The translations under genes were made by a program, and so were the position numbers. The notes under the pieces were generated by a model that worked only from the letters and a program-made list of their open reading frames with translations, did no database searches and was not told where the DNA came from. Below, in pieces: positions 3,168 to 38,579 of a DNA stretch of 63,202 nt. The stretch spans positions 1 to 63,202 of IMG/VR virus record IMGVR_UViG_3300030329_003706; one strand, given 5' to 3'. Source of the DNA: a virus. Taxonomy: Duplodnaviria; Caudoviricetes. Each line of letters starts with the position of its first letter. Positions within the stretch are counted from its first letter, which is position 1.

Positions 3168-3722
3168 TTATCCTAAAAATGTAACATTAAAGTAAAAGTA
3201 TCGTTGTTCGTCATCAGAAGGGTGTGTTACTGTGTCTGATTGTGTTCTCATCATTGAAGCTACTGATTTACCTGCTATTAAATGTTTACAAAAATGTATA
3301 CCACCAGTTATATCCTGCTTCTCTGCAAAATTCCAAAGTGTTGTAAGACCTTGATTACTATCATTACTATCCCCTGTAACAACTCCTAAACCTATATAAT
3401 CACCTACTGTTTCAGCATATCCAAACCATAGATTAATCATATAAAGTCCTGATATGGGTACAGTAAATATTCCAGTCGAATTGTCATAATGATTTCCATA
3501 ATTTTCAGTAACAGTAGAAAAATTTCTCATAAGTTTCCAATTAGAATCAAGGGCTGAACCATTAATAGTTGGACCTGCACTTGCGTTATCTGATGTAGCT
3601 GAAAACCCTAATGCAAAAAAATGAGGTCTTGCAGTTGTAGTTAATAAACGTCCACTACTATCTATTGTCTGAGCCGTAGTGCCATTGGTGTGCTTTATAT
3701 TTTGTACTAGAAGATTGCTCAT
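3168..3722 (-). CDS. Tail adhesin with C1q-like domain
   Basis: YDNSTGIFTVPISGLY motif; close paralogue of 61345..61890. Confidence 0.7.
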   Translation of the reverse strand: MSNLLVQNIKHTNGTTAQTIDSSGRLLTTTARPHFFALGFSATSDNASAGPTINGSALDSNWKLMRNFSTVTENYGNHYDNSTGIFTVPISGLYMINLWFGYAETVGDYIGLGVVTGDSNDSNQGLTTLWNFAEKQDITGGIHFCKHLIAGKSVASMMRTQSDTVTHPSDDEQRYFYFNVTFLG

Positions 3723-9968: not shown

Positions 9969-10595
9969 TTAAGCTTCATATCCATATAATTCTATTAGCA
10001 ACTTACCTGCTGTGTAATCAGCATTTGTTGTAGCACCTAGAGTTAGATACAAGTATGAATCTGCCGCAGGAACGGCTGATAAAATAACAACACTACCTAG
10101 TGATGCGTCACCTGCATTAACCAATAAAGTTTCTGTCAAATCTGAGATAGCCCCATCTTCAACACCTGTTGCTTCAGTTGCAGAATGAATATTGATATCT
10201 GGGTCACCACCTGCAGGAGCTTCAAAACAAGTCATTCTGCCTGCAAGTATAGTTCCGTTTCTCGCGGCGGTTATCTGCCCAATGTGACAAGCATTAGATG
10301 TACCATCAACACCAATAATGTCGCCACTAGCTGTTGATCTTAGTCCTGTAAGGTCAATTAGGATACTTGTGGTAATAATACCACCTGACCTAAGAACCGA
10401 ACTTTTGTAAATAGTACCTGTACCACCTGTGATACCTGTACCTGCTTCTGTAGCCATTGTATTAGCATCAAGCGAAGTAAAGCCTGCAGATGAAATGGAC
10501 ATTTGTGTTGTTTCTGCACCTGTAGATGTGGCTGTAGCTATTGAAGAGTAGCCTCCCTCAGATCGTAAAGTGCCTTTAAATGTAGTATTAGCCAT
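9969..10595 (-). CDS. Virion structural protein (possible capsid fibre/decoration)
   Basis: MANTTFKG N-terminus; first gene after the capsid terminator; AGGAG RBS. Confidence 0.55.
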   Translation of the reverse strand: MANTTFKGTLRSEGGYSSIATATSTGAETTQMSISSAGFTSLDANTMATEAGTGITGGTGTIYKSSVLRSGGIITTSILIDLTGLRSTASGDIIGVDGTSNACHIGQITAARNGTILAGRMTCFEAPAGGDPDINIHSATEATGVEDGAISDLTETLLVNAGDASLGSVVILSAVPAADSYLYLTLGATTNADYTAGKLLIELYGYEA

Positions 10596-10663
10596 GTTTT
10601 ATCTCCTTGTCTTGGCTGTTGTCAATCACACCATGTGATTGTCAAGGTTATTAAACTGTACAT

Positions 10664-10715: not shown

Positions 10716-11624
10716 TTAAGCTCCAGGAGAACCAAACACACATCTTGGGTCAGAAACACCAAAACTATAACGCTCTCTAGCCTTATAGCGAACATTGCCT
10801 GTTTCAAAATCCCCTTCCATAGAGGTTTTGATAGCACTTCTTTCAAAATGCTTAAAACCATTTGGAGCATCTGTTTTGATAAAAAACGCATCAGTATCGG
10901 TTAAGAAGTGATTTACCACATAACCATCTGGTAGCATTCCCATGTTCTTAACAGCATTTACATCATTATCTGCTGTTCCAGATCTCAGGTTAGAAGCCAT
11001 CAATCTTTCTGCAACAAACTGTAATGCAGGTGGGATAATTAATTTCCTACCTTGTAATGCAATTTTCAAACCTCTTTCATCAATAAAAGCGGCGATATCG
11101 ATTAACGATTGCTCTAGTGATGTTTCATTAAGGTCTGCGGCTGTTGAAAGCTCGTTACGGAAAGTTCCTCCACCTACTGTTGGATGATCAGTCGCACAAA
11201 GCTCTTTACTATCGCCTATTGCGTAACTGCTGTCAAACGCATTGTTTAGTACAGAAGCCGCCTTGACTTGCTTAGTATTAGCCATTGATCTTGCTAATGC
11301 ACGAGTATAACGAGAGCTAAGTCTGTCATAGAGATTATCCTCTACAGCTTCCTCAGTAATCGCAAAAGCAAGTGCAATAGTTTCATGGGTATACCTTGCT
11401 GTAAAAGCTTCGTTTGCAGAGTCATATGCGACTGCCGCTCCCTCACCTTTCACTGGGGCTTGTCCAAAACCAGACAACATTACTTCCTCTTCAAACGCTC
11501 TGTCTGAAGATTCGGTTTCAAAAATTTCGGCATGCTCATTGTCATACCTATCGTACTCCATTCCGAACAAGGCATTTAATCCTGGTTCTAATTCTTTAAG
11601 GAGTTGTGATCTACTTATAGCCAT
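10716..11624 (-). CDS. Major capsid protein
   Basis: MAISRSQLLKELEPGLNALFG...YKARERYSFG..DPR.VFGSPGA, a recognisable MCP family; strong GGAGG RBS; followed by a terminator. Confidence 0.9.
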   Translation of the reverse strand: MAISRSQLLKELEPGLNALFGMEYDRYDNEHAEIFETESSDRAFEEEVMLSGFGQAPVKGEGAAVAYDSANEAFTARYTHETIALAFAITEEAVEDNLYDRLSSRYTRALARSMANTKQVKAASVLNNAFDSSYAIGDSKELCATDHPTVGGGTFRNELSTAADLNETSLEQSLIDIAAFIDERGLKIALQGRKLIIPPALQFVAERLMASNLRSGTADNDVNAVKNMGMLPDGYVVNHFLTDTDAFFIKTDAPNGFKHFERSAIKTSMEGDFETGNVRYKARERYSFGVSDPRCVFGSPGA

Positions 11625-16251: not shown

Positions 16252-16586
16252 AACACACCTTTAAACTTTATACCTTTTAAAGTTGCTCCCGCTCCACGAG
16301 AAACAAAAGGCGTTCCTGCTCTGTCTTCTGTAGCATTCATCAAAGCGGCATTTTCTCCTCCACTAGGGCTTCCCATTGACCGCATTATTCTTTCACCATG
16401 CCCACCATGTTTAGCCATAACTCTCTTTTTTGTTTTCTTATTAGACTTTTTAGCATATTTACCCAAATGCCAGTCAGGATCTAGTTGAAAAATTTCTGCC
16501 TCTATTTCCGATTGGTTATCATCGGTTAACGAACCTTCTAGTTCTTTTATACGGTTTATATCATCTTTTCCTATTGTATCAGCCAT
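16248..16586 (-). CDS. Hypothetical protein
   Basis: Coupled to the portal stop; C-terminal SRGAGATLKG.KFKGVF. Confidence 0.5.
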   Translation of the reverse strand: MADTIGKDDINRIKELEGSLTDDNQSEIEAEIFQLDPDWHLGKYAKKSNKKTKKRVMAKHGGHGERIMRSMGSPSGGENAALMNATEDRAGTPFVSRGAGATLKGIKFKGVF

Positions 16587-18958
16587 TAGTTTCCTCCTTT
16601 AACTGATTGTTGTGTTCGTTCTCTTGCTATTTGAGCTCTCATATTAGCAATATCCTCTGTTGATTGTATTCGCTCTCTTGCTATGTCGGCTGTATCTTTA
16701 TTTTTCATAGCATCTTGCTGTAACTTTTGTTCATCTACTTGGGCATCTTGGTTAATTTGCTTCTCACGCAAGGCTACCTCTTGTTTCTTAATTTCTACAA
16801 GTGGGTCTTGGTCTGTTTGTGGTGGGTTTTGTTGTTGGAACTCCATTATTAACTGTGCTTGTATTTGTGCGAGCATTTGTGCATGAGCCTCGGGCGGTTG
16901 TTGCTGTGCCTGTGGGTCTTGTGCCATTTGTTGATCATGAACTACTTGTGCTTTCATACCGAGATGTTCGTAAATATGCTTTTCTAATGTCAACAACAAC
17001 GGTGGTTGCATCTGGGCAACCTTACTATTCATATAAGCCAAGTGTACAGCAATATGAGCATCGTGGTCTTGTTGAGGAAATGCCTGTATCTGCGTTTGTC
17101 CTTCTGCGGCTTGACTGGCTTTTTGGTTTTCTGTTGCAGGATCCAATGGCTGTGGTGGCTCTTTCGGGGTCAATATCTGCTCGACATTATTCACACCCAA
17201 TGCTTCATAAACTCGACGGTAAGCCTCGTGCATATTGTGCAATTCTGGAGCCGCAGTCGCCAATTTTAACTGTTCTTGTGCCAAAACCACTCTTTGTGAC
17301 ATACTAAAAATATTAGGGTCACTAACAGGTAATATATCAACACGGTTATCAAAATCTTGTGCCTTAATTTGATTATCCGCACCAACTTCATAAGGATAAG
17401 GGGTAGGATCCTCACCAAATAAAGAACTCAATAACCTTAATTCACTTTTCATACTCGCATGTAACCGTTTATGCACAGCACTAACTATCTTTGCTCCTCT
17501 TTCAAGTAAAGCAATGGTTGTACCTACAGGCATTTCTTGGTTTCCATCCCCAACACCCATATCTGTAGTACCAATAAACTTCTGAGCCGCACTCACCACA
17601 AACCCCATTAACTGAAATAACGTACCAGAAGGTTCTTTATAGGGCAAAGGCATCAAACTTGTGCGTAAATCACCTCCAGGAACATCAACATCTCTAAATT
17701 CTCCTGGAGATAAAGGGTTTTGGTCATCAGCAATACGCAAACCCCGAGCTTTAAATCCCGCAGGCATATTACTCAACGTTCCCGCATCGATTAATTGGCG
17801 TAAATTCGCTGTAGCTGTGCGTGAAAGATTAGAAAGTAGGTGTATTAACCCAAAACCATAAAATCCAAGTCCTGGAGTAAACTTATACTGCACAAAATGG
17901 GGTATTTTATCCTTATTTACATCATCTGGGCGGTAATTTCTGCGTATTGAAAGCACCTCATGGCTTGTTTCACTCACAGTAACTACATAAGGTAACTTAA
18001 TTTCAGTCAATTGACCGCTTTCATCGGTATCTGGGTACTCATCCAAGTCCAAATAACAATGGCACTCATATAAAATCACCTCATCTGAATCATTAGCAGG
18101 GCTAACTCCTTCAAGTTTTTCATACGCTTTCTTAATTTCATTGTTTGGCTCATCACTATCCTTAGAAATATCAATTTCTTTGTAAAAACCCTTTACCTGT
18201 AGCTTCCGAAGGTCATTTTGCGACATACGAATAATATGAGTCACACGGTCAGCAGTCTTTAAATCAACAGCAGTGTACGGTACAATCACATCTTCCGCAG
18301 GTACAAACTTACTAACAGGGCGATTTAATACATCATCTTTATAAATTTTCTTAAAAGTTGATCCCGCCAACCCCAAATAATACAACATCTGGTCAAACTC
18401 TGGCTCATACTCCTCCATCTGGTACATTATCTGGTAATTCATATAATCTTGAACACGCTTCGCCTGCTTTTCCGTTTCGATACTAGGCACTCCTACAATA
18501 TTAGCTCGCACAGGACCACCACTCGGCAACATCTCCTTATATGCTCCTGCCTGAAACTGCGTAACGGCTTCATTCAAAACAGGGTGGATTACACCTGTTG
18601 CTCCATCAAAAGGTTCAGTACGGGACTCATACTTCAAACCAAGCAAATCTAAACCCTTTGTATATGTCTCTACCCACTCCTCTCTACTATTCTTATCCTC
18701 TTCTACGTTTTCAATTACCATAGAAGCAATATCAGTAAGGGTGCTATCCTCTAAATTATCTACTAAGTTATCGAAAAAATCATCAGGTTCAGTACCCATA
18801 ACCTGCTCTTCACCAAAAATAACTTCCGCACCACCATCTTCCGTTTCTATAGCCTCTACTTCAACATCTAAAGGTTGTTCTGCCTCCATCTCCATAGGGG
18901 TAAGCATATCATCTGGGGCTTGCAAAAGTGATCTATCTACATTACTTGGTTTTGCCAT
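16586..18958 (-). CDS. Portal protein
   Basis: 790 aa directly after TerL; EAVTQFQA, PGLGFYGFGL and RQLIDAGTLSN motifs; long Gln-rich C-terminal coiled coil. Confidence 0.88.
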   Translation of the reverse strand: MAKPSNVDRSLLQAPDDMLTPMEMEAEQPLDVEVEAIETEDGGAEVIFGEEQVMGTEPDDFFDNLVDNLEDSTLTDIASMVIENVEEDKNSREEWVETYTKGLDLLGLKYESRTEPFDGATGVIHPVLNEAVTQFQAGAYKEMLPSGGPVRANIVGVPSIETEKQAKRVQDYMNYQIMYQMEEYEPEFDQMLYYLGLAGSTFKKIYKDDVLNRPVSKFVPAEDVIVPYTAVDLKTADRVTHIIRMSQNDLRKLQVKGFYKEIDISKDSDEPNNEIKKAYEKLEGVSPANDSDEVILYECHCYLDLDEYPDTDESGQLTEIKLPYVVTVSETSHEVLSIRRNYRPDDVNKDKIPHFVQYKFTPGLGFYGFGLIHLLSNLSRTATANLRQLIDAGTLSNMPAGFKARGLRIADDQNPLSPGEFRDVDVPGGDLRTSLMPLPYKEPSGTLFQLMGFVVSAAQKFIGTTDMGVGDGNQEMPVGTTIALLERGAKIVSAVHKRLHASMKSELRLLSSLFGEDPTPYPYEVGADNQIKAQDFDNRVDILPVSDPNIFSMSQRVVLAQEQLKLATAAPELHNMHEAYRRVYEALGVNNVEQILTPKEPPQPLDPATENQKASQAAEGQTQIQAFPQQDHDAHIAVHLAYMNSKVAQMQPPLLLTLEKHIYEHLGMKAQVVHDQQMAQDPQAQQQPPEAHAQMLAQIQAQLIMEFQQQNPPQTDQDPLVEIKKQEVALREKQINQDAQVDEQKLQQDAMKNKDTADIARERIQSTEDIANMRAQIARERTQQSVKGGN

Positions 18959-20418
18959 TAATAATATATCCTTTGTACTGGACCACGAGGCTCATCTTCA
19001 TAATCCTCAGGGTGTTGTATAAAACCGCCTTCTCTAAATCTTCGCAAAGCCTGTGTAACAGTATCAACGTAATCATCGTGTTCTCCTGCTGGAAAAGCCG
19101 CACATTCCTCAATTACCTCCTCAGCCCAACGAGTATCTGGACACCATACTAACCCACTTTCTAGCAACGGTGCAATAGAATTTACTCGACTAAATTTATC
19201 ATTTCCTCTACTTGGGCTGTAATTAGTCACTGGAATACCCATGTTTCTTAGCTCTTGGGTCAGCGGCATACCCGAAGCTTTTGCCTCGATTAATACACAT
19301 TCAGGATCCCAATACTTAAACTCCTCTAACGCTCGCCGTCGCAAATCAGGAAAATCCCATCGTCCACGCTTGGCATCAACTAGAATAATGTTTGGTGGTT
19401 TCCCTTCCTCTGGGTAAAAAACACCCCATGTGGTAATCGCACTAAAATCAGCATTAGTCTGCTTACTATACGCCGTATCATAACTCTGCATAACATACTC
19501 CAACGGTGGTAACTCATCCTTCCACGTCTGCCACCAATCACGCTTTAATATCGCCGCTCCCTCACTTGTAGGGTTCTGTTGCCATTGGGCTTCCCACTTA
19601 TTAATAGAAAGTGATCCCTTAACCGATAATAAATCCTCTTTTTTCCAAAATTCTCCCCACAACGGCTCCTCTGTATCAGGCATCAACGCAGGGAATTCAA
19701 CTATCTCCCACTTATCCGCTAATATATCTCTCGCTTGTTGCTTAACCAATTTACCTGTCAAATCGTTTTCTGCCCATCGGGTCATAATCATTACAATACT
19801 CCCTCCTGGTTGTAAACGCTGTCTAGGTCCACTAGTATACCATTCATACGCATGCTCCATAGCCGTCGGCGATAAAGCATCTTGCTCACTGTGGGGGTCA
19901 TCAATAATCAATAAATCCGCACCACGTCCAGTAACCGCACCTCCAACTCCAGCCGCGAAATATTCACCCCCCTTATCCGTCTCCCATCGTCCCGCCGCTT
20001 GGCTATCCGCTCGCAAAGAAACATTGTCGAATATAGCTCCGTATTCACTCGAATTCATCAAATTACGCACCTTACGTCCAAATCTAAATGCCAACTCAGC
20101 CGTATGCGTAGTCTGCATAATCTTTAACTTCGGGTTTCTACCCATCAACCACGCAGGTAGTAAATAACTTCCGAATTCAGATTTCGTGTGTCTCGGTGGC
20201 ATATTCACTATCAATCGCTTTAACTCACCTCGGGCTATACGGTTAAACTTCTCAGCCATTATCTTATGGTGGCGTCCATTTATAAACTCCACCCAAACAG
20301 CCTGTACAAAGCACATAAAATCCTCTCGGGCTTTTTCCGCTTGGTCTAAACTCTTAGCTCTATCCAATAAATGGGCAAACTTCTTAAGGCTTTCCTCAGG
20401 TATACGTTCTAAGTCCAT
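18958..20418 (-). CDS. terL: Terminase large subunit
   Basis: MPPRHTKS Walker A variant; GRGADLLIIDDP Walker B; nuclease motifs SYDTA, DFSA and HDDYVD. Confidence 0.95.
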   Translation of the reverse strand: MDLERIPEESLKKFAHLLDRAKSLDQAEKAREDFMCFVQAVWVEFINGRHHKIMAEKFNRIARGELKRLIVNMPPRHTKSEFGSYLLPAWLMGRNPKLKIMQTTHTAELAFRFGRKVRNLMNSSEYGAIFDNVSLRADSQAAGRWETDKGGEYFAAGVGGAVTGRGADLLIIDDPHSEQDALSPTAMEHAYEWYTSGPRQRLQPGGSIVMIMTRWAENDLTGKLVKQQARDILADKWEIVEFPALMPDTEEPLWGEFWKKEDLLSVKGSLSINKWEAQWQQNPTSEGAAILKRDWWQTWKDELPPLEYVMQSYDTAYSKQTNADFSAITTWGVFYPEEGKPPNIILVDAKRGRWDFPDLRRRALEEFKYWDPECVLIEAKASGMPLTQELRNMGIPVTNYSPSRGNDKFSRVNSIAPLLESGLVWCPDTRWAEEVIEECAAFPAGEHDDYVDTVTQALRRFREGGFIQHPEDYEDEPRGPVQRIYY

Positions 20419-20613
20419 ATTTCCTCTATATATCGAAAATTTTCCAAAGGCAATGAACCTATAATCAATATACAGTGTTCAGGGGGGTAGCAACTTTAAT
20501 AATTTTTCGATTACCCTTGAATCGGAAAAAACATGGTTTTACACGCAAAACCAAGGGAAGAATTCTCGCACAGGGGGGTCGCAAATTTGCAACCGTGCCG
20601 ATGGGTAAAATGG

Positions 20614-20643
20614 GCTAGGGGGTAACCTTAGTTACCCCCTAGC
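20614..20643 (-). terminator. 13-bp perfect hairpin terminator after 20651..21088
   Basis: GCTAGGGGGTAAC-CTTA-GTTACCCCCTAGC. Confidence 0.75.
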
Positions 20644-20650
20644 GTTAAAA

Positions 20651-21088
20651 TTAACTAGCTGTAGGCTGTACAACTAATTTAATGTAGCAAGTACCCCAAT
20701 AGCTACTGCTTGGGCTGTAGCCACCGTTTAAAAGTGCAAACAAGCAATTTGGGTTTTTGGCACTATGACCAAGCTTACTAGCGTTTGCCAAAACGACAGC
20801 CAAACTAGTGTTTGTTTTGTGGGCGTTTAAAATACTATTTTGTATTGTAGCCCTTACGCCTTGCCCACTACCACCGTAGCCAAACGGTGTAGGTTTAGCA
20901 CTACCAAGCTTTACGTTTGATAGTGGTACTATTTGCACATTGGCTAACTGCCCTTGAGCGTGTGTATTTACCCACTTGTAAAAGCTAGTGGCATTGTACG
21001 GCGTTTGACCACACCCTACGCCACCGTAAACGACAGCTTTGGTGCTAACAGCATTTTTACTGTTATTTTTTGGTTTAGTGTTTTGCAT
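20651..21088 (-). CDS. Early protein of unknown function, Asp/Glu-free paralogue of 21863..22324
   Basis: Own promoter, AAGGAG RBS and terminator. Shares PFGYGGS..GVR.TIQ, KLGHS.K.PNC and NGGYSPSS.YWGT.YIKLVVQ with the paralogue. Confidence 0.85.
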   Translation of the reverse strand: MQNTKPKNNSKNAVSTKAVVYGGVGCGQTPYNATSFYKWVNTHAQGQLANVQIVPLSNVKLGSAKPTPFGYGGSGQGVRATIQNSILNAHKTNTSLAVVLANASKLGHSAKNPNCLFALLNGGYSPSSSYWGTCYIKLVVQPTAS

Positions 21089-21129
21089 AATATACTCCTT
21101 TTTGGTTGTTATGCGTTTGCGTTAATATC

Positions 21130-21200
21130 AGAGTAAACGTTTTTTAAAAGCTTGTAAATAGTTTTTTTAACTTTTTTTAACTTTTTTTAATTTTTATTTT
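21130..21200 (-). promoter_or_regulatory. Sigma70-type promoter TTTACA-N17-TACTCT with phased A-tracts (UP-like)
   Basis: -35 at 21153-21158, -10 at 21130-21135, and about four A-tracts at 10-bp period at 21161-21200. Confidence 0.7.
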
Positions 21201-21378
21201 TGATTGATGCGATTGAGTTGAGTTGATTTGACTCATTATATAAAGAGATAGACAGACACAGATGCACACAGATGAACACCTATCCCCTTGCGATGGGAAG
21301 GGAATGGGAGCTATCGCCCCCACACCATATATAGAAAGCCTAAGAATATACCGATACAAAGTAAGAATGCGATTACCA

Positions 21379-21600
21379 TTAGCAATCCTCCCAACCTGGA
21401 GGTCCACTGTACGCTGTTTCCCTTTTTTTAACCTCGCATGGGTCACATAACTCAGTATGCCCACCGTATCCTGTCATGCCACATTTACTAGGGACATGCT
21501 TTGCTTCCTCCCACTCCAATGTTAATGCAGATTGTCCTGCAGGTTTTAGTAAAGTGATAGGTTTACCACAACCTCTAAAATTTCCCATATACCAATTCAT
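21379..21600 (-). CDS. Small Cys-containing early protein
   Basis: AAGGAG RBS and its own promoter at 21642-21682. Confidence 0.65.
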   Translation of the reverse strand: MNWYMGNFRGCGKPITLLKPAGQSALTLEWEEAKHVPSKCGMTGYGGHTELCDPCEVKKRETAYSGPPGWEDC

Positions 21601-21862: not shown

Positions 21863-22324
21863 TTAACCTTGAACCACCAATTTGATGTAAGGAGTTCCCC
21901 AATATTTACTTGATGGGGAGTAACCACCGTTCATCGCGGCGAGCACACAGTTTGGACGTTTTTTACTGTGTCCAAGTTTCGCGGCTTTCGCGAGTACAGT
22001 TTTAAGGGACGTGTCACCATCAACACCAAAAATTATCCAGTCTTGTATGGTTTGACGAACGCCACCTTTTGACCCACCGTATCCAAAAGGCAGTGGCTCA
22101 CTGCCAGTCTTGTCAACATTAGGTAAGCATTCAATTTTGACATTCGCCTCATTGCCTCCTGCTTGCTCAGCAATAAACTTAGTGATGTCGGTGTAATCAA
22201 GAGTCTTGCCGTCCTTAACAACTAACTCTACAGACTTTACGACTGCCTTAGGAGTCGCTGCCTTTGATTTTGGTTTAATGTTATTCATGAGTATCTCCTT
22301 TCTACGAGAATTATTTTTTAACAT
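21863..22324 (-). CDS. Early protein of unknown function, paralogue of 20651..21088 (true start probably MNNIKPK at 22288)
   Basis: AGAAAGGAG RBS before the second Met; own promoter and terminator. Confidence 0.85.
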   Translation of the reverse strand: MLKNNSRRKEILMNNIKPKSKAATPKAVVKSVELVVKDGKTLDYTDITKFIAEQAGGNEANVKIECLPNVDKTGSEPLPFGYGGSKGGVRQTIQDWIIFGVDGDTSLKTVLAKAAKLGHSKKRPNCVLAAMNGGYSPSSKYWGTPYIKLVVQG

Positions 22325-24210: not shown

Positions 24211-24250
24211 ACAATAACAGTTAAGCTGTCTTGTGATAACTCTTTTATTT
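24211..24250 (-). promoter_or_regulatory. Phage promoter TTATCA-N17-TATTGT
   Basis: Family member. Confidence 0.6.
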
Positions 24251-24796
24251 TCCTTTTTTGTCTGGCTCTACGACTTCAGCTTCAATAACCAAATTGTCAT
24301 CACTGATCACACCCAGAGCAGGATACTCTTCTTGAAGTCTTTTGATTTCTTTCATAACCTCGTCTTTACTCATCTGATCAATATTTCCATGGAGTATTTC
24401 TTTACGATCAATGTAGAGTCCAGCCGCTTGACCTCTGGATTTTTCAGCCGCGACTGCCGCAGGATAATTGTTGTTCTGCATTGCTAGATCACGTATTTCT
24501 GCAAGTTTTTTTACATGTCCCTCAAAAGTCACCTCATACTTACGGGACAACTCTTGCTTTAACTCCCGAATTCTTTCAACAACATGGGGGTATCGTTGTC
24601 CGTTTAATAGTTGGGAGGCGATTGCATGGGCAGATTTCTCAGAGTATCCTGCTTTGAGAGCCGCTTCTGTCTGGGAAACATCTTCACAAACATAGATTCT
24701 ACAAAACTCCTCCTGTTTGGGTGTGATGCTTTTTTCTGTCCGTGGATTTCCCACGACAGACAGTGTATGTTTGTGAGTTGCTTTTGCGATTGCCAT
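24245..24796 (-). CDS. terS: Terminase small subunit
   Basis: ITPKQEEFCRIY...QTEAALKAGYSEKSAHAIASQLL helix-turn-helix typical of TerS. Confidence 0.85.
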   Translation of the reverse strand: MAIAKATHKHTLSVVGNPRTEKSITPKQEEFCRIYVCEDVSQTEAALKAGYSEKSAHAIASQLLNGQRYPHVVERIRELKQELSRKYEVTFEGHVKKLAEIRDLAMQNNNYPAAVAAEKSRGQAAGLYIDRKEILHGNIDQMSKDEVMKEIKRLQEEYPALGVISDDNLVIEAEVVEPDKKGK

Positions 24797-34512: not shown

Positions 34513-34882
34513 GAGATATTCTACTAGGGTGATCTAAACCATCTGTATCATAAGACTCATGGTTATTATCCTTTCTAAGAATTTCTGCTTCTACAAGCAT
34601 AAGATACCTGCGTAAATCTTTGATATCATCAATAACACCCTCTGGTCGAGTATCTAACTGAGCTGTTTTGAATATATCATAGTTATGCTCCGTGACTTGC
34701 TTTTCAAGCCTGTCCCATTTACGAGCAAGCATCATAAACGCCCCTACACCTCCACGCTGTTTCCAGCTGTCACCGTAGCTTTGTTCAGATTTATGCAACC
34801 CTTCTACATCTTGCTTTGCTACTTTTTCTACAAGTGCTATCATCGTGCTGTATTGTGTCATTTTTTCCTCCTTTTTAACCAT
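34460..34882 (-). CDS. Nucleotide-modification-associated all-alpha protein (Nmad1/DUF1599-like)
   Basis: SYGDSWKQRG...ARKWDRLE...DDIKDLRRY; adjacent to the TS homologue. Confidence 0.6.
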   Translation of the reverse strand: MVKKEEKMTQYSTMIALVEKVAKQDVEGLHKSEQSYGDSWKQRGGVGAFMMLARKWDRLEKQVTEHNYDIFKTAQLDTRPEGVIDDIKDLRRYLMLVEAEILRKDNNHESYDTDGLDHPSRISHEEEDMFREDRCEWKTR

Positions 34883-35835
34883 TCAACACACGCCTTACGC
34901 CATGCTCTGTCTTCTATTTTAAAAGCATACTTAAAAGCCGAACTCATATTCTTTTGTTTCCACATATGCCACGATTTTCTCATCATAGCCGCCGTCTTGC
35001 CCAAGAATTCATTTTTATAATTGAATAAATCTTCATCTATAAACCATTTTTGCAATTCTTCATCAAAACAACTTGGGTCTGAAACAATAGGGGGAGAACT
35101 GTAACTCAACCCATCATCCGCAATGGTGAGGTAAGGTTCTCTGTCTATTTGCATACCGTCTAACTTTTTTAAAGGCTCTACATAGGCATGAAGATTATTA
35201 CTGAATTGGTAATAGTCGCCCACCTTACAGCCTGTCATAGATGCCATATACTCTTGCAGTATAGACATATGCACAGCATTAGCTCCATAAGCTCCCCATA
35301 TCATATCATTACTACGATTAACTACTGTCATGTGAAGTTCACTTTTTCGTTTCCAAAAGAAGATTTGTGTATTACAGGGGTGATCTTTACCACCATTACT
35401 TCTATGGAGGTCTTGTATGGGATCCCACATATTTATAACCACTCTCCTATCGTTGGGATAAGTGGTTAATCTAAATATGGCAATTTCTAACTGATCTTTA
35501 CCAAACCATGTTCTCCACCTGTAACCGTAAGCTCCATGTGAAGTTATTCCATCATCACTGTATTCCACCATTCGCTTATTGTAGTTTTGTATAAACTCTA
35601 CATCGTTTCTACCTGCTAACATCCAAAGGGATTCCATTAAATGGAAATAGGGGTTAGCGTCCCTTTCTGGATAAAACAATACTCTTTCTCTACTGTGTGT
35701 ATAGGTCGTTACAACTGGACCAGGAAACTCCAATGCTAACCCATTACGAGTTTCCACTTCTATACCTGAAGATTCTAAAGCATCTTTGCCTATGGCTAAA
35801 GCTTCACTAACATTACGAACCCATATTTCTTGCAT
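34858..35835 (-). CDS. Thymidylate synthase-family enzyme, probably dUMP hydroxymethylase
   Basis: ETRNG, HGAYGYRWR, catalytic KDHPCN, NRSND..WGAYGAN (Asn, dUMP-type) and NLHAY; lies in the modification cluster. Confidence 0.85.
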   Translation of the reverse strand: MQEIWVRNVSEALAIGKDALESSGIEVETRNGLALEFPGPVVTTYTHSRERVLFYPERDANPYFHLMESLWMLAGRNDVEFIQNYNKRMVEYSDDGITSHGAYGYRWRTWFGKDQLEIAIFRLTTYPNDRRVVINMWDPIQDLHRSNGGKDHPCNTQIFFWKRKSELHMTVVNRSNDMIWGAYGANAVHMSILQEYMASMTGCKVGDYYQFSNNLHAYVEPLKKLDGMQIDREPYLTIADDGLSYSSPPIVSDPSCFDEELQKWFIDEDLFNYKNEFLGKTAAMMRKSWHMWKQKNMSSAFKYAFKIEDRAWRKACVEWLKRRKK

Positions 35836-36508
35836 CTGCTACATCCTTTCTTATCCAACAACTGTTAGGTTCAATGAGTTTAGGCAATGAACCTTTTTTA
35901 TTTGCAACTCTTTCAGTCCACTTTAATAAGTATCCCTTAGAACGTAAAAGCTCCCACTTTCGCTGTTTTATTTCTTCCTGCTCCTCTCTATACTCTTTAG
36001 TGGTATTGCCCTTAATAGCTACATAATCTTCTGTGATTATTTCTTCTGGAAACACTTGCCAACTGTAAGCAGATAATATGTTTTTATCATTGCCTTCTGT
36101 ATCTATCTTTAATATGTCCACATGGGTAATATTGTGTTCCTTGAATAAAGTGTCTAAAGTTTTAAGGGGAACAGTTTGATACTCATCTGTTAAATGCTGT
36201 GAAATATATTCGGTGTCCTTTAATAAAGAAGAACGCATACATTTTTCTTTTTGTGCAGGACTACGTCTGTTCATAAATCCATATTTCCCCATATATAATT
36301 TACCTACACCATCTTCATTGCTTATGGCACAATGTTCATACTTGAAATCACACCCCGATAAGCTTTTAAATATTTCCTCTTTTAAATGAATATTGGGTTC
36401 TACCATCAAACCAAACCATTTTTCTCTTTTACGATGCAATAACTTATTAGCTAGAGATAATGTTCTGGCATTAAAGCACCCAATGTCTACAATTACCTTT
36501 TTGTTCAT
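35813..36508 (-). CDS. FkbM-family SAM-dependent methyltransferase
   Basis: VDIGCF, VEPN, CAIS, TLDTL and DILKIDTEG motifs. Start placed at the AGGAGG-preceded ATG 36508 (track start 36553). Confidence 0.85.
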   Translation of the reverse strand: MNKKVIVDIGCFNARTLSLANKLLHRKREKWFGLMVEPNIHLKEEIFKSLSGCDFKYEHCAISNEDGVGKLYMGKYGFMNRRSPAQKEKCMRSSLLKDTEYISQHLTDEYQTVPLKTLDTLFKEHNITHVDILKIDTEGNDKNILSAYSWQVFPEEIITEDYVAIKGNTTKEYREEQEEIKQRKWELLRSKGYLLKWTERVANKKGSLPKLIEPNSCWIRKDVADARNMGS

Positions 36509-36582
36509 ATAACGCCTCCTCGACGTAGTTAGTGGTTTTGCTACCCTGTACACCTAAAAAGGCGTAGAGGGGGTCGAGTGGC

Positions 36583-37677
36583 TTAAATACGCCCCTCAAA
36601 AAAGCTTAAATACTGTTTTCCTATAACTTTTGGGCTGTGTAGAGCTAATGCCTTGCTACCGTTCTCTCTATAAAAAGATAAAGGCGTTGAAGTAGAAGAG
36701 TACTGTGTTCCCATCACTCCTGCGTTAGATGCTACTCCCATACTCTTTCTGGGTATAGAATCGTTGGGGGAATCTATACTGTTTATAAGTTCAGCTAATT
36801 CTTCTGCTGTGCTTACGACTAAACAATTGATATCTGGCTTCATATCGTCTGGCTCATCCAGTAACCACTTAGAATGAATAATAGGAATACATCCTGCGTT
36901 CCATGCTTCAAGCCAAGTGTACTGTGTTCCCCCTCCATCGCCTACTATTTGGGTCATATCTACATTAAAGATATATTTTTTCATAAGGTTAAACGCATGA
37001 TCATTTTCTCTTGGGTAGTGAGCCTTAGACTGTACCCATTCAGGATACTTAGGCACTATCTTAAAGCGAGTGTATATTCTGTTTTCAAATCCCCTTATGT
37101 TTATTTTCTTGTTATCTGGTAATAAACGGTTAGCATCAAGCAAAACTTCTGTGTGCTTATCAAAATCTATTCTAGAAGTACTGATAGCAATTCCTCCACG
37201 AGTGCTTATATTGTTTGGGGTTTGAGAAGTAAAGGGGGAGTAGGGGTGTCTTATGAAAGTAGAACCCTTTAATGTCCTTGCCCCAATTTGTCTTATACTG
37301 ATACACCTATTGGGATCTAAGTTTTCAGGCAAGTTTTTCAACTCAGTAGGATCATGCACCACTATGAAAGCACCGTTGTCATATAGCTGTTGTGTTTGTT
37401 CCTTGAACTGTTTGGCTCCTGCGACAACAAGCTTAATCTCTGATCGCATAGAATTACTTGAAAAGTTACCATTGTATTTGTTAAAAACATCATCCAAAGA
37501 AATGTTTTGGTACTTTTTCCCATACCCAAAATCTCTTTGAAACTTTTCTGATTTTGGACGAACCTTGTAAAGATAAGGGGTAATCCCCACTTCTTTTAGT
37601 GCGTCCATAAGGTGACTGGTATAAGTTACCCAACCTCCATAGGGATTGGGACTTAAATAAAATAAATTTGCTCTCAT
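36583..37677 (-). CDS. GT-B fold glycosyltransferase
   Basis: N-terminal YGGWVTY, HDPTE, SRIDFDKH and GGGTQYTWLEAWNAGCIPI (GT4-like E.x.G motif). Confidence 0.75.
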   Translation of the reverse strand: MRANLFYLSPNPYGGWVTYTSHLMDALKEVGITPYLYKVRPKSEKFQRDFGYGKKYQNISLDDVFNKYNGNFSSNSMRSEIKLVVAGAKQFKEQTQQLYDNGAFIVVHDPTELKNLPENLDPNRCISIRQIGARTLKGSTFIRHPYSPFTSQTPNNISTRGGIAISTSRIDFDKHTEVLLDANRLLPDNKKINIRGFENRIYTRFKIVPKYPEWVQSKAHYPRENDHAFNLMKKYIFNVDMTQIVGDGGGTQYTWLEAWNAGCIPIIHSKWLLDEPDDMKPDINCLVVSTAEELAELINSIDSPNDSIPRKSMGVASNAGVMGTQYSSTSTPLSFYRENGSKALALHSPKVIGKQYLSFFEGRI

Positions 37678-38579
37678 TCTATTTTTCCTTTTATTGAATC
37701 TGTAAATGTTTGTTTGTACAAGCTACGAGGCTTACCCTCACCTAGCCTAACTCTTTCGTACTTGTCCCACTCACATAGGCTATGTTCAATAGTACGCATA
37801 TCTATGTCTGATTCAGAACAAATTAATTGACCATACTCTCGCTTGTATTGAAGCAAGAACCACATTTCTTCATTAGCTTGTTTTTGGCTTATCGTTTTGT
37901 TGAGGGGGCGTTCCCCAATCCTGTTAAGACCGCGAATTGCTCCAGGTCCTGCGTTTGCCCAAGTAAAACGGTCTTTTGGGCATGGTAACACAGATGTGTA
38001 GTTGAGGTCGGAAACGACCTCGTATGACATAAAACCTCCCCCTCCCCACCCTTTATAGGAAGCCATCGCATTGTGGAGACTTTGCAAGGAATTTGTTTGG
38101 GACGCCACAATAGCAAGTTTTTCCTTGTCTCGCCAGATTGGGGATAAGAAGTGGTCAACTACTACCTCCGATTTCCTAAGTTTAAGACCCTGATTCGTAA
38201 TTATATACGCTCCAGTAAATGTCCGTAAACCCTTATCTAATCTTCTTTCTATGATTTCTTTGGTGCGAGTAGGATCCCACTCTGTTACCCACCCATGTTC
38301 CTCAGCAAACTCTATAGTACCCACCATTCTAAACAAACAGCAATTAAATATTATTTCGCCATGATCACGATTATGGTTTAAATCAGTCCAGTTCCTACGC
38401 ATCCAAACGGTTACTCTATCGTTTTCCCTAAATGGATTAGTGAACTTATATTTTTGTAATATAGGGTCAGTAGTCCAAGGAGGAGGTTTACCCTCTAGCC
38501 TACGTTGATATATACGATGCCGTTCTGTTATCCAATCATATAACAAACAGGCATTTAATCTAGCTTCTTTTTCAAACAT
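37674..38579 (-). CDS. aGPT-Pplase1 / 5-hmdU DNA kinase-like protein
   Basis: ERHRIY..R..G.PPPWT.DPILQKYKFTN.FRE.DRVT, FTGAY, GFMSYEVVSD, GPGAIRGL and IEHSLCEWDKY motifs. Confidence 0.85.
   Translation of the reverse strand: MFEKEARLNACLLYDWITERHRIYQRRLEGKPPPWTTDPILQKYKFTNPFRENDRVTVWMRRNWTDLNHNRDHGEIIFNCCLFRMVGTIEFAEEHGWVTEWDPTRTKEIIERRLDKGLRTFTGAYIITNQGLKLRKSEVVVDHFLSPIWRDKEKLAIVASQTNSLQSLHNAMASYKGWGGGGFMSYEVVSDLNYTSVLPCPKDRFTWANAGPGAIRGLNRIGERPLNKTISQKQANEEMWFLLQYKREYGQLICSESDIDMRTIEHSLCEWDKYERVRLGEGKPRSLYKQTFTDSIKGKIE

What the first reader, a model, noticed from the sequence alone, without database searches (positions are those of the whole stretch)
20581..21095. A whole transcription unit with no TC on its template strand, encoding a protein without Asp or Glu
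Seen: the + strand from 20581 to 21095 (515 bp) has no TC dinucleotide by hand scan, where a few dozen would be expected. The first TC on the right is the one forced by the AGGAG Shine-Dalgarno (21096). GA on + is also scarce: 7 copies, all CGA or TGA. The mRNA therefore has no GA, so no GAN codons, and the 145-aa product has no D or E. Inference: T in 5'-TC (or a longer TC-containing motif) carries the bulky modification made by the 34.4-38.6 kb operon. This gene would be kept free of it on the template strand so unaided host RNA polymerase can read it first, acting as a bootstrap gene. Alternative: avoidance of a host TC-targeting defence, such as DarT-type TNTC ADP-ribosylation or restriction sites, in first-entering DNA.
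Basis: partly seen in the sequence, partly recalled or inferred. Interest (0 to 1): 0.95.

Follow-up and report, generated by a model that had tools for sequence, protein, structure and literature searches.

The report
Phage gene purged of GA and TC
One small gene unit in a marine phage, and its relatives in dozens of related phages, has been kept free of the two-letter words GA and TC so strictly that its protein has lost all aspartate and glutamate, which suggests it must stay readable when some GA/TC-specific process hits the rest of the genome.

Summary
No TC occurs on the + strand from 20580 to 21095. This is the largest gap for any dinucleotide in the window (P about 2e-17 per site). The 145-aa product has no Asp or Glu.

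The cause is not protein composition. Back-translating the same protein predicts 11.4 GA, and 0 are observed (0 of 50,000 simulations).

The gene is the "B" copy of a conserved A/B paralogue pair in marine phages. B copies across the family lack GA on the sense strand, and ancestrally TC too. This holds from the promoter through the Shine-Dalgarno to the terminator, in genomes of 36-58% GC. Pairs that differ by 24-179 substitutions stay clean, although one third of possible substitutions would create GA or TC.

All 8 near-complete genomes with the pair carry a 5-hmdU DNA kinase operon. Published work shows such thymidine hypermodification is dinucleotide-specific (TG, less TC).

Best reading (about 0.4): the unit avoids the phage's own TC-context modification so that host RNA polymerase can read it. 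Three results count against this:
- One genome with an intact operon has a relaxed B.
- Three other kinase-bearing phages have no such island.
- An RNA-level nuclease or a host DNA enzyme is not excluded.

The protein's function is unknown.

The parts
20651..21088 (-). Gene B (g1): 145-aa protein with no Asp or Glu. It has 0 GA and 6 TC on the sense strand.
   Evidence: Relatives.
20580..21095 (.). Stretch with no TC on the + strand (no GA in the transcript). It runs from the base after the TC at 20579 to the Shine-Dalgarno.
21095..21099 (-). Shine-Dalgarno AGGAG (CTCCT on +). It holds the only GA between the terminator and position -41 from the ATG.
20615..20642 (-). 12-bp G+C-rich hairpin followed by CCCATTTTA, taken as the probable terminator of the unit. 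The consensus scan did not list it because the T run is short.
   Evidence: read. Scan. Pooled 3' boundary.
21100..21233 (-). 5' leader and promoter region. It holds TTTACA and TGATATTAA candidates (not mapped) and phased A-tracts, AAAAAAAGTT three times. It has only one sense GA (+ strand TC at 21128) and lies in the window's second largest TC gap.
21200..21300 (-). TC-dense tract on the sense strand just upstream of the unit: 14 TC in 80 bp, against a locus null 95th percentile of 8.
21863..22324 (-). Paralogue A (g2): 153 aa, 50% identical, 13 D+E, 29 GA and 22 TC. Its composition is normal.
37674..38579 (-). 5-hmdU DNA kinase (HMUDK_hel, 176 bits).
34858..35835 (-). Thymidylate synthase homologue. 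It is a candidate dUMP hydroxymethylase, but that specificity was not tested.
35813..37677 (-). FkbM methyltransferase (35813-36553) and a 364-aa protein with no Pfam hit (36583-37677). They sit where relatives carry a group-1 glycosyltransferase.

Best explanation
Gene B and its promoter, leader and terminator form a stand-alone unit with a sigma-70-like promoter. Long-term purifying selection keeps it free of 5'-TC-3' on the template strand, which means no GA in the RNA. Ancestrally it was free of TC on both strands.

The most likely agent is the phage's own thymidine hypermodification. All T is replaced by 5-hmdU. The DNA kinase then marks 5-hmdU in a dinucleotide context, inferred here to be TC. 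A glycosyltransferase-type enzyme builds a bulky group on it.

A unit without TC carries no bulky base. Host RNA polymerase can therefore bind and read it whatever the modification state of the genome. That covers transcription straight from injected virion DNA, and late transcription when all DNA is modified. Paralogue A has normal composition and supplies the same protein when the DNA is readable.

Shown: the purge, its extent, its conservation, ongoing selection, and co-occurrence with the kinase operon.

Inferred: that TC is the modification context, that the modified base hinders RNA polymerase, and when B is expressed.
For: - Nucleotide-level selection: with the protein held fixed, 11.4 GA are expected and 0 observed.
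- Extent: in 30 loci pooled, GA and TC run at 0.05-0.25 of expectation from -100 to +50 around the gene. They return to normal beyond. In strict lineages even the Shine-Dalgarno avoids GA (AAAGGT, AAGGGG). The -35 boxes are TTGCAA, TTGTAA or TTGTGC, never TTGACA.
- Family-wide: 16 of 56 unique B genes have 0 GA and 0 TC. 18 of 96 unique cores have no D/E, GA or TC, and they lie on deep branches. 39 of 71 full-length family representatives have 3 or fewer D+E. The purge also appears in 54-58% GC relatives. One has a 1168-bp TC-free zone that also holds a second, unrelated D/E-free ORF.
- Ongoing selection: one third of possible substitutions would create GA or TC, yet pairs differing by 24-179 substitutions stay clean. 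Two natural variants of the window's gene add no + strand TC.
- Uniqueness: in 6 of 7 whole genomes, B is the top outlier among all 16 dinucleotides.
- Link to modification: the kinase is present in 15 of 18 records with the pair and 8 of 8 near-complete ones. It is absent, together with the pair, from 4 of 4 nearest GenBank relatives. The window also carries dTTP-excluding enzymes, a MazG-like protein and an HD nucleotidase.
- Literature: the modification is dinucleotide-specific, TG mainly and TC less, in phage SH-Ab 15599 (PMC13458397 passages). A TG/TC preference is seen in M6, ViI and phiW-14 (PMC6449724). Kinase treatment of a 5hmU template cut E. coli RNA polymerase output to about 10% (PMC6457204 passages).
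- The template-strand component is the most strictly conserved.
Against: - G004 carries the same DUF932-kinase-GT1-TS operon as strict genomes, but its B has 17 GA and 24 TC, and the genome has no island.
- PhiJL001, YuA (first 50 kb) and SH-Ab 15599 carry the kinase but have no purged island for any dinucleotide, including TG/CA in SH-Ab 15599.
- All other genes of the window are rich in template-strand TC (sense GA 5-10%). The modification therefore cannot be a general block to transcription.
- TerL and portal show depletion of sense-strand TC, not template-strand TC.
- Co-occurrence with the kinase may reflect shared ancestry only.
- The modification and its context were not observed.
- The window's 364-aa operon protein has no Pfam match.
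Confidence: 0.4

Rival explanations
1. RNA-level immunity. A host or phage endoribonuclease cuts RNA at GA (and more weakly at UC). B's mRNA lacks these sites from the 5' end to the terminator, so it survives when other mRNAs are cut. B could be the countermeasure or a function needed under attack.
For: - The strictest and most universal component is absence of GA on the sense strand.
- The 3' boundary for GA falls within 50 nt of the stop codon, at the terminator.
- Leaders, Shine-Dalgarno and terminator stems are purged.
- A second ORF in the same unit is purged too.
- Repeated relaxation in some lineages fits loss of a host factor. The only gene family present in at least 5 of 6 strict genomes and absent from relaxed G004 is tail-fibre-like.
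- Site-free transcripts are a known way to escape MazF (PMC9102682 and PMC5408214, search listing abstracts).
Against: - No RNase was recognised among the window proteins scanned.
- I know of no nuclease specific for GA plus UC (recalled, not searched exhaustively).
- Depletion also covers -100 to -50, the predicted promoter and UP region, and partly -150 to -100. That sequence is constrained anyway.
- All other phage mRNAs, including A's, are GA-rich.
Confidence: 0.2
2. Evasion of a host DNA-directed enzyme that acts at TC or GA. Candidates are a TC-specific cytosine deaminase, a DarT-type ADP-ribosyltransferase, a nuclease, or PAM-dependent CRISPR. B is the one unit that must stay intact and transcribable, for instance because it encodes the countermeasure.
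For: - The A/B phages show mild genome-wide under-representation of sense TC (0.69-0.87) and GA (0.86-0.98). Three other phages show 1.09-1.39. The relaxed G004 is the least depleted for TC (0.87), with GA at 0.94.
- Both strands are purged ancestrally.
- Relaxation occurs with an intact modification operon.
Against: - A symmetric double-strand recognition does not explain lineages with 0 GA but normal TC on the sense strand (L010, L012).
- Damage to the rest of the genome would still be lethal unless B acts very fast.
- No residual-site context such as TNTC emerged.
- The host and its defences are unknown. No relative was found in 185,579 species genomes by the pattern used.
Confidence: 0.2
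3. Mutational origin. Repeated TC-to-TT deamination (GA to AA on the other strand) of a highly transcribed region erased the dinucleotides without selection for their absence.
For: AA and TT are slightly above expectation in the unit: 66 vs 50-62 and 43 vs 34-44. Some A-to-B replacements are D to N or E to K.
Against: - Many replacements are not G-to-A products: E to L/V/Q, D to G/S/K.
- GC, GT, AC and CA are the enriched dinucleotides.
- The protein family is conserved and folds confidently (pLDDT 82.7).
- The sharp boundaries at promoter and terminator, and the purged Shine-Dalgarno, need selection.
Confidence: 0.03

Closest known systems
Dinucleotide-context thymidine hypermodification through 5-hmdU DNA kinase: alpha-dapT at TG in Acinetobacter phage SH-Ab 15599, and a TG/TC preference in M6, ViI and phiW-14
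   Same: The window has a homologous kinase (34.6% identity to the SH-Ab 15599 locus; Pfam HMUDK_hel) next to a TS homologue and PolA. In these phages a two-letter context decides which T is modified (PMC13458397, PMC6449724).
   Different: No modification-free gene has been described in those phages. I found none in SH-Ab 15599, YuA (50 kb) or PhiJL001. The context here (TC) is inferred, not measured. The transfer enzymes differ (GT-type).
Cleavage-site-free (ACA-less) transcripts that escape MazF-type endoribonucleases
   Same: A whole transcript lacks a short word and so stays functional while other RNAs are hit (PMC9102682 and PMC5408214, search listing abstracts).
   Different: Here the word is a dinucleotide, which forces loss of two amino acids. 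The promoter region is also depleted. The complementary word TC is avoided too. No cognate nuclease is known.
Restriction-site avoidance in phage genomes, and early anti-restriction genes such as T7 gene 0.3 (recalled, not checked here)
   Same: Sequence words are avoided so that DNA escapes a sequence-specific enzyme. An early gene has to work before protection is in place.
   Different: Avoided words there are 4-8 bp sites and the avoidance is genome-wide. Here a dinucleotide is removed completely from one unit only.
T4 hydroxymethylcytosine DNA with Alc, which discriminates transcription by base modification (recalled, not checked here)
   Same: Base modification state decides which DNA host RNA polymerase reads.
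   Different: T4 modifies every C and has no modification-free gene. No Alc relative was found here.

Membership tests
5-hmdU-derived thymidine hypermodification system (the phage as a carrier) | 5-hmdU DNA kinase gene | tested here: met
   PF18723 HMUDK_hel scored 176.4 bits against a cut-off of 25, at 37674-38579. It is present in 15 of 18 related records.
5-hmdU-derived thymidine hypermodification system (the phage as a carrier) | dUMP hydroxymethylase (thymidylate synthase homologue) | tested here: inconclusive
   Pfam Thymidylat_synt scored 77.2 bits. Hydroxymethylase versus methylase specificity was not tested.
5-hmdU-derived thymidine hypermodification system (the phage as a carrier) | Enzyme that replaces the phosphate with the final group | tested here: inconclusive
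   The window's 364-aa protein has no Pfam hit. In G001 the protein at the same place matches Glycos_transf_1 at 28.9 bits against a cut-off of 26.4.
5-hmdU-derived thymidine hypermodification system (the phage as a carrier) | Modified thymidine in virion DNA, and its sequence context | not testable with these tools
   This needs LC-MS and native-DNA sequencing.
Cleavage-site-free transcript of a sequence-specific endoribonuclease | Transcript lacks the word | tested here: met
   There is no GA from the terminator to the Shine-Dalgarno. The same holds family-wide.
Cleavage-site-free transcript of a sequence-specific endoribonuclease | A cognate nuclease with that specificity | tested here: inconclusive
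   None was recognised in Pfam or PHROG scans of window proteins. The host is unknown.
Restriction-site avoidance | Avoided word is a 4-8 bp recognition site, depleted genome-wide | tested here: not met
   The word is a dinucleotide, removed from one unit only. Genome-wide observed/expected is 0.82-0.97 in the window.
Terminase small subunit (considered because of the position upstream of terL) | Terminase_2-type domain | tested here: not met
   g1 has no significant Pfam or PHROG hit. TerS is 24245-24796 (Terminase_2, E = 3e-15).
Winged-helix DNA-binding proteins | Winged-helix fold | tested here: inconclusive
   The AF2 model has pLDDT 82.7. Foldseek gave nothing at E <= 0.001. The best VIA-align Z was 5.1, with many winged-helix rows at Z 3-4, which is below the noise level stated by the tool.

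The most novel reading that the evidence does not exclude
TC is the recognition context of this clade's bulky thymidine hypermodification. A modified T in the template stops unaided host RNA polymerase. B is a modification-proof copy of a DNA-binding factor, possibly winged-helix-like, that reads modified DNA or lets the polymerase transcribe it. The phage thus boots its own hypermodified genome from one clean unit. If so, dinucleotide-purged units would allow modification motifs to be read from sequence alone in uncultured viruses.
Probability: 0.25. Interest if true: 0.95.

Novelty: categorically new. Interest (0 to 1): 0.85.

Why it matters
A whole transcription unit purged of a dinucleotide on both strands is a kind of genomic feature I could not find described. 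It has been conserved across a deep, virus-only protein family, at the cost of two of the twenty amino acids. Searches gave no relevant paper.

The feature shows that some process in these infections acts at two-letter resolution. That process is strong enough to reshape a protein's alphabet.

If the process is the phage's own DNA hypermodification, three things follow:
- It gives a sequence-only readout of the modification motif.
- It gives the first hint that such modifications constrain transcription.
- It points to a candidate factor for handling modified DNA.

If the process is a nuclease or a host defence, the feature points to an unknown GA/TC-specific system in abundant marine bacteria. 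Either way it is directly testable.

Tried and rejected
Explanations considered and rejected:
- Protein composition alone. Rejected by the back-translation simulation and by the purged untranslated regions.
- Assembly or sequencing artefact. Rejected because independent assemblies and diverged homologues show the same purge.
- Terminase small subunit or pac site. terS lies elsewhere, and the boundaries match a transcription unit.
- Depletion of Asp/Glu tRNAs by an anticodon nuclease. This would explain only in-frame GAN codons, not the other frames or the untranslated parts.
- Avoidance of CsrA sites or internal Shine-Dalgarno-like words. These cover only GGA or GGAG.
- An extended motif around residual sites. 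None was found, so the window's 'all TCR' pattern is not general.
- Deaminase hypermutation. See the rival explanations.

Searches for function that gave no lead:
- Pfam and PHROGs.
- PDB profile search, 0 hits at E <= 10.
- Foldseek against PDB and BFVD, nothing at E <= 0.001.
- VIA-align wide, best Z 5.1.
- ESM Atlas, only unnamed viral clusters.
- tblastn against 50,697 GenBank phage records, no match.
- Genome-contig scan, no relative.
- The profile search of 1.84 billion representatives found 104 proteins. One is fused to an HNH_2 domain.

Expression: no RNA holder is listed among 24 runs. The contigs laid show presence and variants only.

Association test in the distant high-GC lineage: the contigs are 1.5-13 kb, too short to show presence or absence of the kinase.

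Literature:
- PMC6449724: passages and section 19.
- PMC8989533, PMC9599517 and PMC13458397: passages.
- PMC6457204: outline and passages.
- PMC11550810: outline with abstract.
- PMC9102682 and PMC5408214: search listing only.
- Supplementary files were not opened. The restriction tables of PMC6449724 and PMC13458397 may bear on how strong the TC preference is.
- T4 Alc, T7 gene 0.3, DarT motifs and DddA are recalled, not checked.

Full report
**What the window is.** The window is a complete IMG/VR virus record of 63,202 bp, found in marine metagenomes. Nearly all genes lie on the - strand.
- It encodes TerL (18958-20418), a portal protein and tail proteins. It also encodes TerS (24245-24796), PolA, an AEP primase and a UvrD-type helicase.
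- It carries an operon with a thymidylate-synthase homologue, an FkbM methyltransferase, a 364-aa protein with no Pfam match, and a 5-hmdU DNA kinase.
- A MazG-like pyrophosphatase and an HD 5'-deoxynucleotidase are also present. Together these fit replacement of T by 5-hmdU.
- Its nearest GenBank relatives by terL DNA are HTVC023P-type pelagiphages.

**The observation.**
- On the + strand, TC occurs 4522 times, but none lies between 20579 and 21096. This 517-bp gap is 37 times the mean spacing. The next largest outlier for any dinucleotide is 15 times. The second largest TC gap (105 bp) is directly adjacent.
- The per-site probability is 2.5e-17.
- The ORF at 20651-21088 (-) encodes 145 aa without Asp or Glu. 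It has no GA in any frame. Sense-strand TC is also low (6 in the ORF).
- The paralogue at 21863-22324 is 50% identical. It has 29 GA and 22 TC.
- With the protein held fixed, synonymous back-translation predicts 11.4 +/- 2.8 GA and 18.7 +/- 3.2 TC. Zero GA was never reached in 50,000 trials. Gly is never GGA, and 14 of 15 Ser codons are AGY.
- The purge is therefore a nucleotide-level property. It goes beyond what follows from a protein without acidic residues.

**Relatives.**
- Pattern scans of IMG/VR found 4 and then 79 loci. Nearly all show the gene order TerS, VRR-NUC-like gene, paralogue A, paralogue B, TerL.
- A copies have 10-17 D+E, 20-35 GA and 17-37 TC.
- B copies have 0-3 D+E in most lineages, and their GA count is about equal to their D+E count. 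Often they have no TC at all. 16 of 56 unique B genes have neither GA nor TC.
- A tree of 96 unique core sequences puts B copies in a deep clade. 18 leaves on its long branches have no D/E, GA or TC. Relaxed copies are nested and derived. The sense-strand TC constraint was lost at least four times. GA mostly stays close to the number of Asp/Glu codons, exceeding it by 4-6 in the most relaxed copies.
- The profile search of 1.84 billion representatives found 104 family members. Of 71 full-length ones, 39 have 3 or fewer D+E.
- More distant members from 42-58% GC contigs show the same purge. In L113 a 1168-bp zone has no TC and a single GA, which is the one Asp codon. That zone also holds a second, unrelated 64-aa ORF without D or E.
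- The property therefore belongs to the transcription unit, not to one protein.

**Extent of the purge.** Thirty loci were pooled, with observed counts compared to mononucleotide expectation:

| Interval relative to the gene | GA obs/exp | TC obs/exp |
|---|---|---|
| -150 to -100 | 0.42 | 1.0 |
| -100 to -50 | 0.18 | 0.25 |
| -50 to 0 | 0.14 | 0.10 |
| coding sequence | 0.056 | 0.09 |
| +0 to +50 | 0.05 | 0.11 |
| +50 to +100 | 1.0 | 0.28 |
| beyond | normal | normal |

- Upstream lie sigma-70-like promoters (TTGCAA, TTGTAA, TTGTGC or TTTACA, then 16-17 nt, then TATAAT, CATAAT or TATATT). They are preceded by phased A-tracts and followed by a leader hairpin.
- In strict lineages the Shine-Dalgarno itself avoids GA (AAAGGT, AAGGGG).
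- Downstream is a hairpin terminator, and GA reappears 10-30 nt after it.
- These promoters are predictions. No transcript ends are known.

**Ongoing selection.**
- In a GA/TC-free sequence, exactly one third of all single substitutions create GA or TC. Even so, pairs of B genes that differ by 24-179 substitutions remain clean. Examples are L069/L073 with 70 substitutions and L078/L082 with 179.
- Contigs of two other marine runs carry variants of the window's own gene, with 41 and 25 differences. The listed substitutions create no + strand TC. The + strand GA count moves from 7 to 1 and from 7 to 10.
- Sense GA (template TC) is therefore the hard constraint, and sense TC is the softer one.

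**Uniqueness and controls.**
- In G000, G001, G002, G006, G007 and G008 the B unit is the top outlier among all 16 dinucleotides, at 23-41 times the mean spacing. In G004 no island exists (maximum 12.8).
- Three kinase-bearing phages outside the clade show maxima of 12-18 and no purged gene. They are PhiJL001, YuA (first 50 kb) and SH-Ab 15599. In SH-Ab 15599 the modification is published to sit at TG, and TG/CA are not purged there either.

**Link to the modification operon.**
- The kinase family was found in 15 of 18 records that hold the pair. It was found in all 8 that are at least 90% complete. The three misses are 45-59% fragments.
- The four nearest GenBank relatives have neither the kinase nor the pair. 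No GenBank phage has the pair.
- The enzyme between kinase and TS differs among genomes. G001, G002, G004 and G008 have a group-1 glycosyltransferase. G000, G006 and G007 have an unmatched 331-364-aa protein.
- Published work supports two-letter specificity of this pathway. Sites resistant to restriction enzymes in M6, ViI and phiW-14 are enriched in TG/TC (PMC6449724). Alpha-dapT sits at TG, and less at TC, in SH-Ab 15599 (PMC13458397).
- Kinase treatment of a 5hmU template reduced E. coli RNA polymerase output to about a tenth (PMC6457204).
- With T7 RNA polymerase, template-strand modifications had positive or negative effects, and non-template ones were mostly mildly positive (PMC11550810, abstract).

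**Interpretation.**
- The shared core of all viable readings: the B unit must keep working when something that acts on GA/TC affects everything else. Paralogue A is the ordinary copy.
- I favour the phage's own TC-context hypermodification as the agent (0.4), for two reasons. It explains both strands with one cause, because template-strand lesions matter more than non-template ones. It also ties to a system that is present and known to work at dinucleotide resolution.
- The main facts against are set out under Best explanation (the Against line).
- One further observation fits a costly GA:TC step but does not say why it is costly. Sense TC and GA are mildly under-represented genome-wide in this clade. 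TC is 0.69-0.87, with the value closest to 1 in G004 (0.87; GA there is 0.94). The three outside phages show 1.09-1.39.
- An RNA-level nuclease (0.2) and a host DNA-directed enzyme (0.2) remain open.

**The protein.**
- The AlphaFold2 model is confident (pLDDT 82.7). It has no clear structural relative. Many weak rows are winged-helix domains.
- One family member is fused to an HNH endonuclease domain.
- Net charge is about +11 to +12 in both A and B.
- A nucleic-acid-binding role is a lead, not a finding.

**Verdict.** I found no description of such a feature in print.

Noticed in passing
window 21200-21300 (- strand sense); also L005 2800-2900, L115, L067: A TC-dense tract on the sense strand lies directly upstream of the purged unit. 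Maximum TC per 80 bp exceeds the locus's own 95% null in 15 of 25 loci.
   Followed up: partly
window 21150-21200; L005 2895-2935; L008, L010: Phased A-tracts (AAAAAAAGTT three times at about 10-bp period) lie upstream of the predicted promoter. They resemble an UP element or bent DNA.
   Followed up: no
window 16586-20418 (terL, portal) and the same genes in G001-G008: Sense-strand TC is 0.35-0.86 of expectation in terL and portal of the A/B phages. It is 0.96 in terL of HTVC027P, which lacks the kinase. GA is not depleted there.
   Followed up: partly
whole genomes G000-G008 versus PhiJL001, YuA, SH-Ab 15599: Genome-wide sense TC obs/exp is 0.69-0.87 and GA 0.86-0.98 in the A/B phages. TC is closest to 1 in the relaxed G004 (0.87; its GA is 0.94). 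The three other kinase phages show 1.09-1.39.
   Followed up: partly
L113 3439-3633: A second ORF (64 aa, no D or E, unrelated to the family) sits inside the same 1168-bp TC-free zone.
   Followed up: no
protein P0132 (420 aa): A family member is fused to an HNH_2 endonuclease domain (residues 313-366). This is the only domain fusion seen among 104 representatives.
   Followed up: no
window 10593-10647 (-): An Rfam Mu-gpT-DE RNA match (58.5 bits against a gathering score of 49) lies just downstream of the ORF at 10716-11624 and overlaps the start of the ORF at 9969-10595, both of which lie among virion-protein genes and were not themselves scanned.
   Followed up: no
window, whole: No TTGACA-N16-18-TANNNT occurs on either strand, against 3.3 expected from shuffles. 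The phage seems to lack consensus -35 promoters.
   Followed up: no
window about 20570-20580; L005 about 3505-3515; L067 about 1822-1838: A run of six or more C lies just after B's terminator in several lineages. Sense TC stays low for about 50 nt further than GA does.
   Followed up: no
window 21379-21600 (-): A 73-aa Cys-rich ORF lies between A and B. It had no Pfam hit. The region between A and B in the window is 310-450 bp longer than in L005 and L006.
   Followed up: no
contig of L020/L022 (G002): Slightly different copies of B lie at both ends of one 60,123-bp contig. This probably reflects closure of a circular assembly across strain variants.
   Followed up: no
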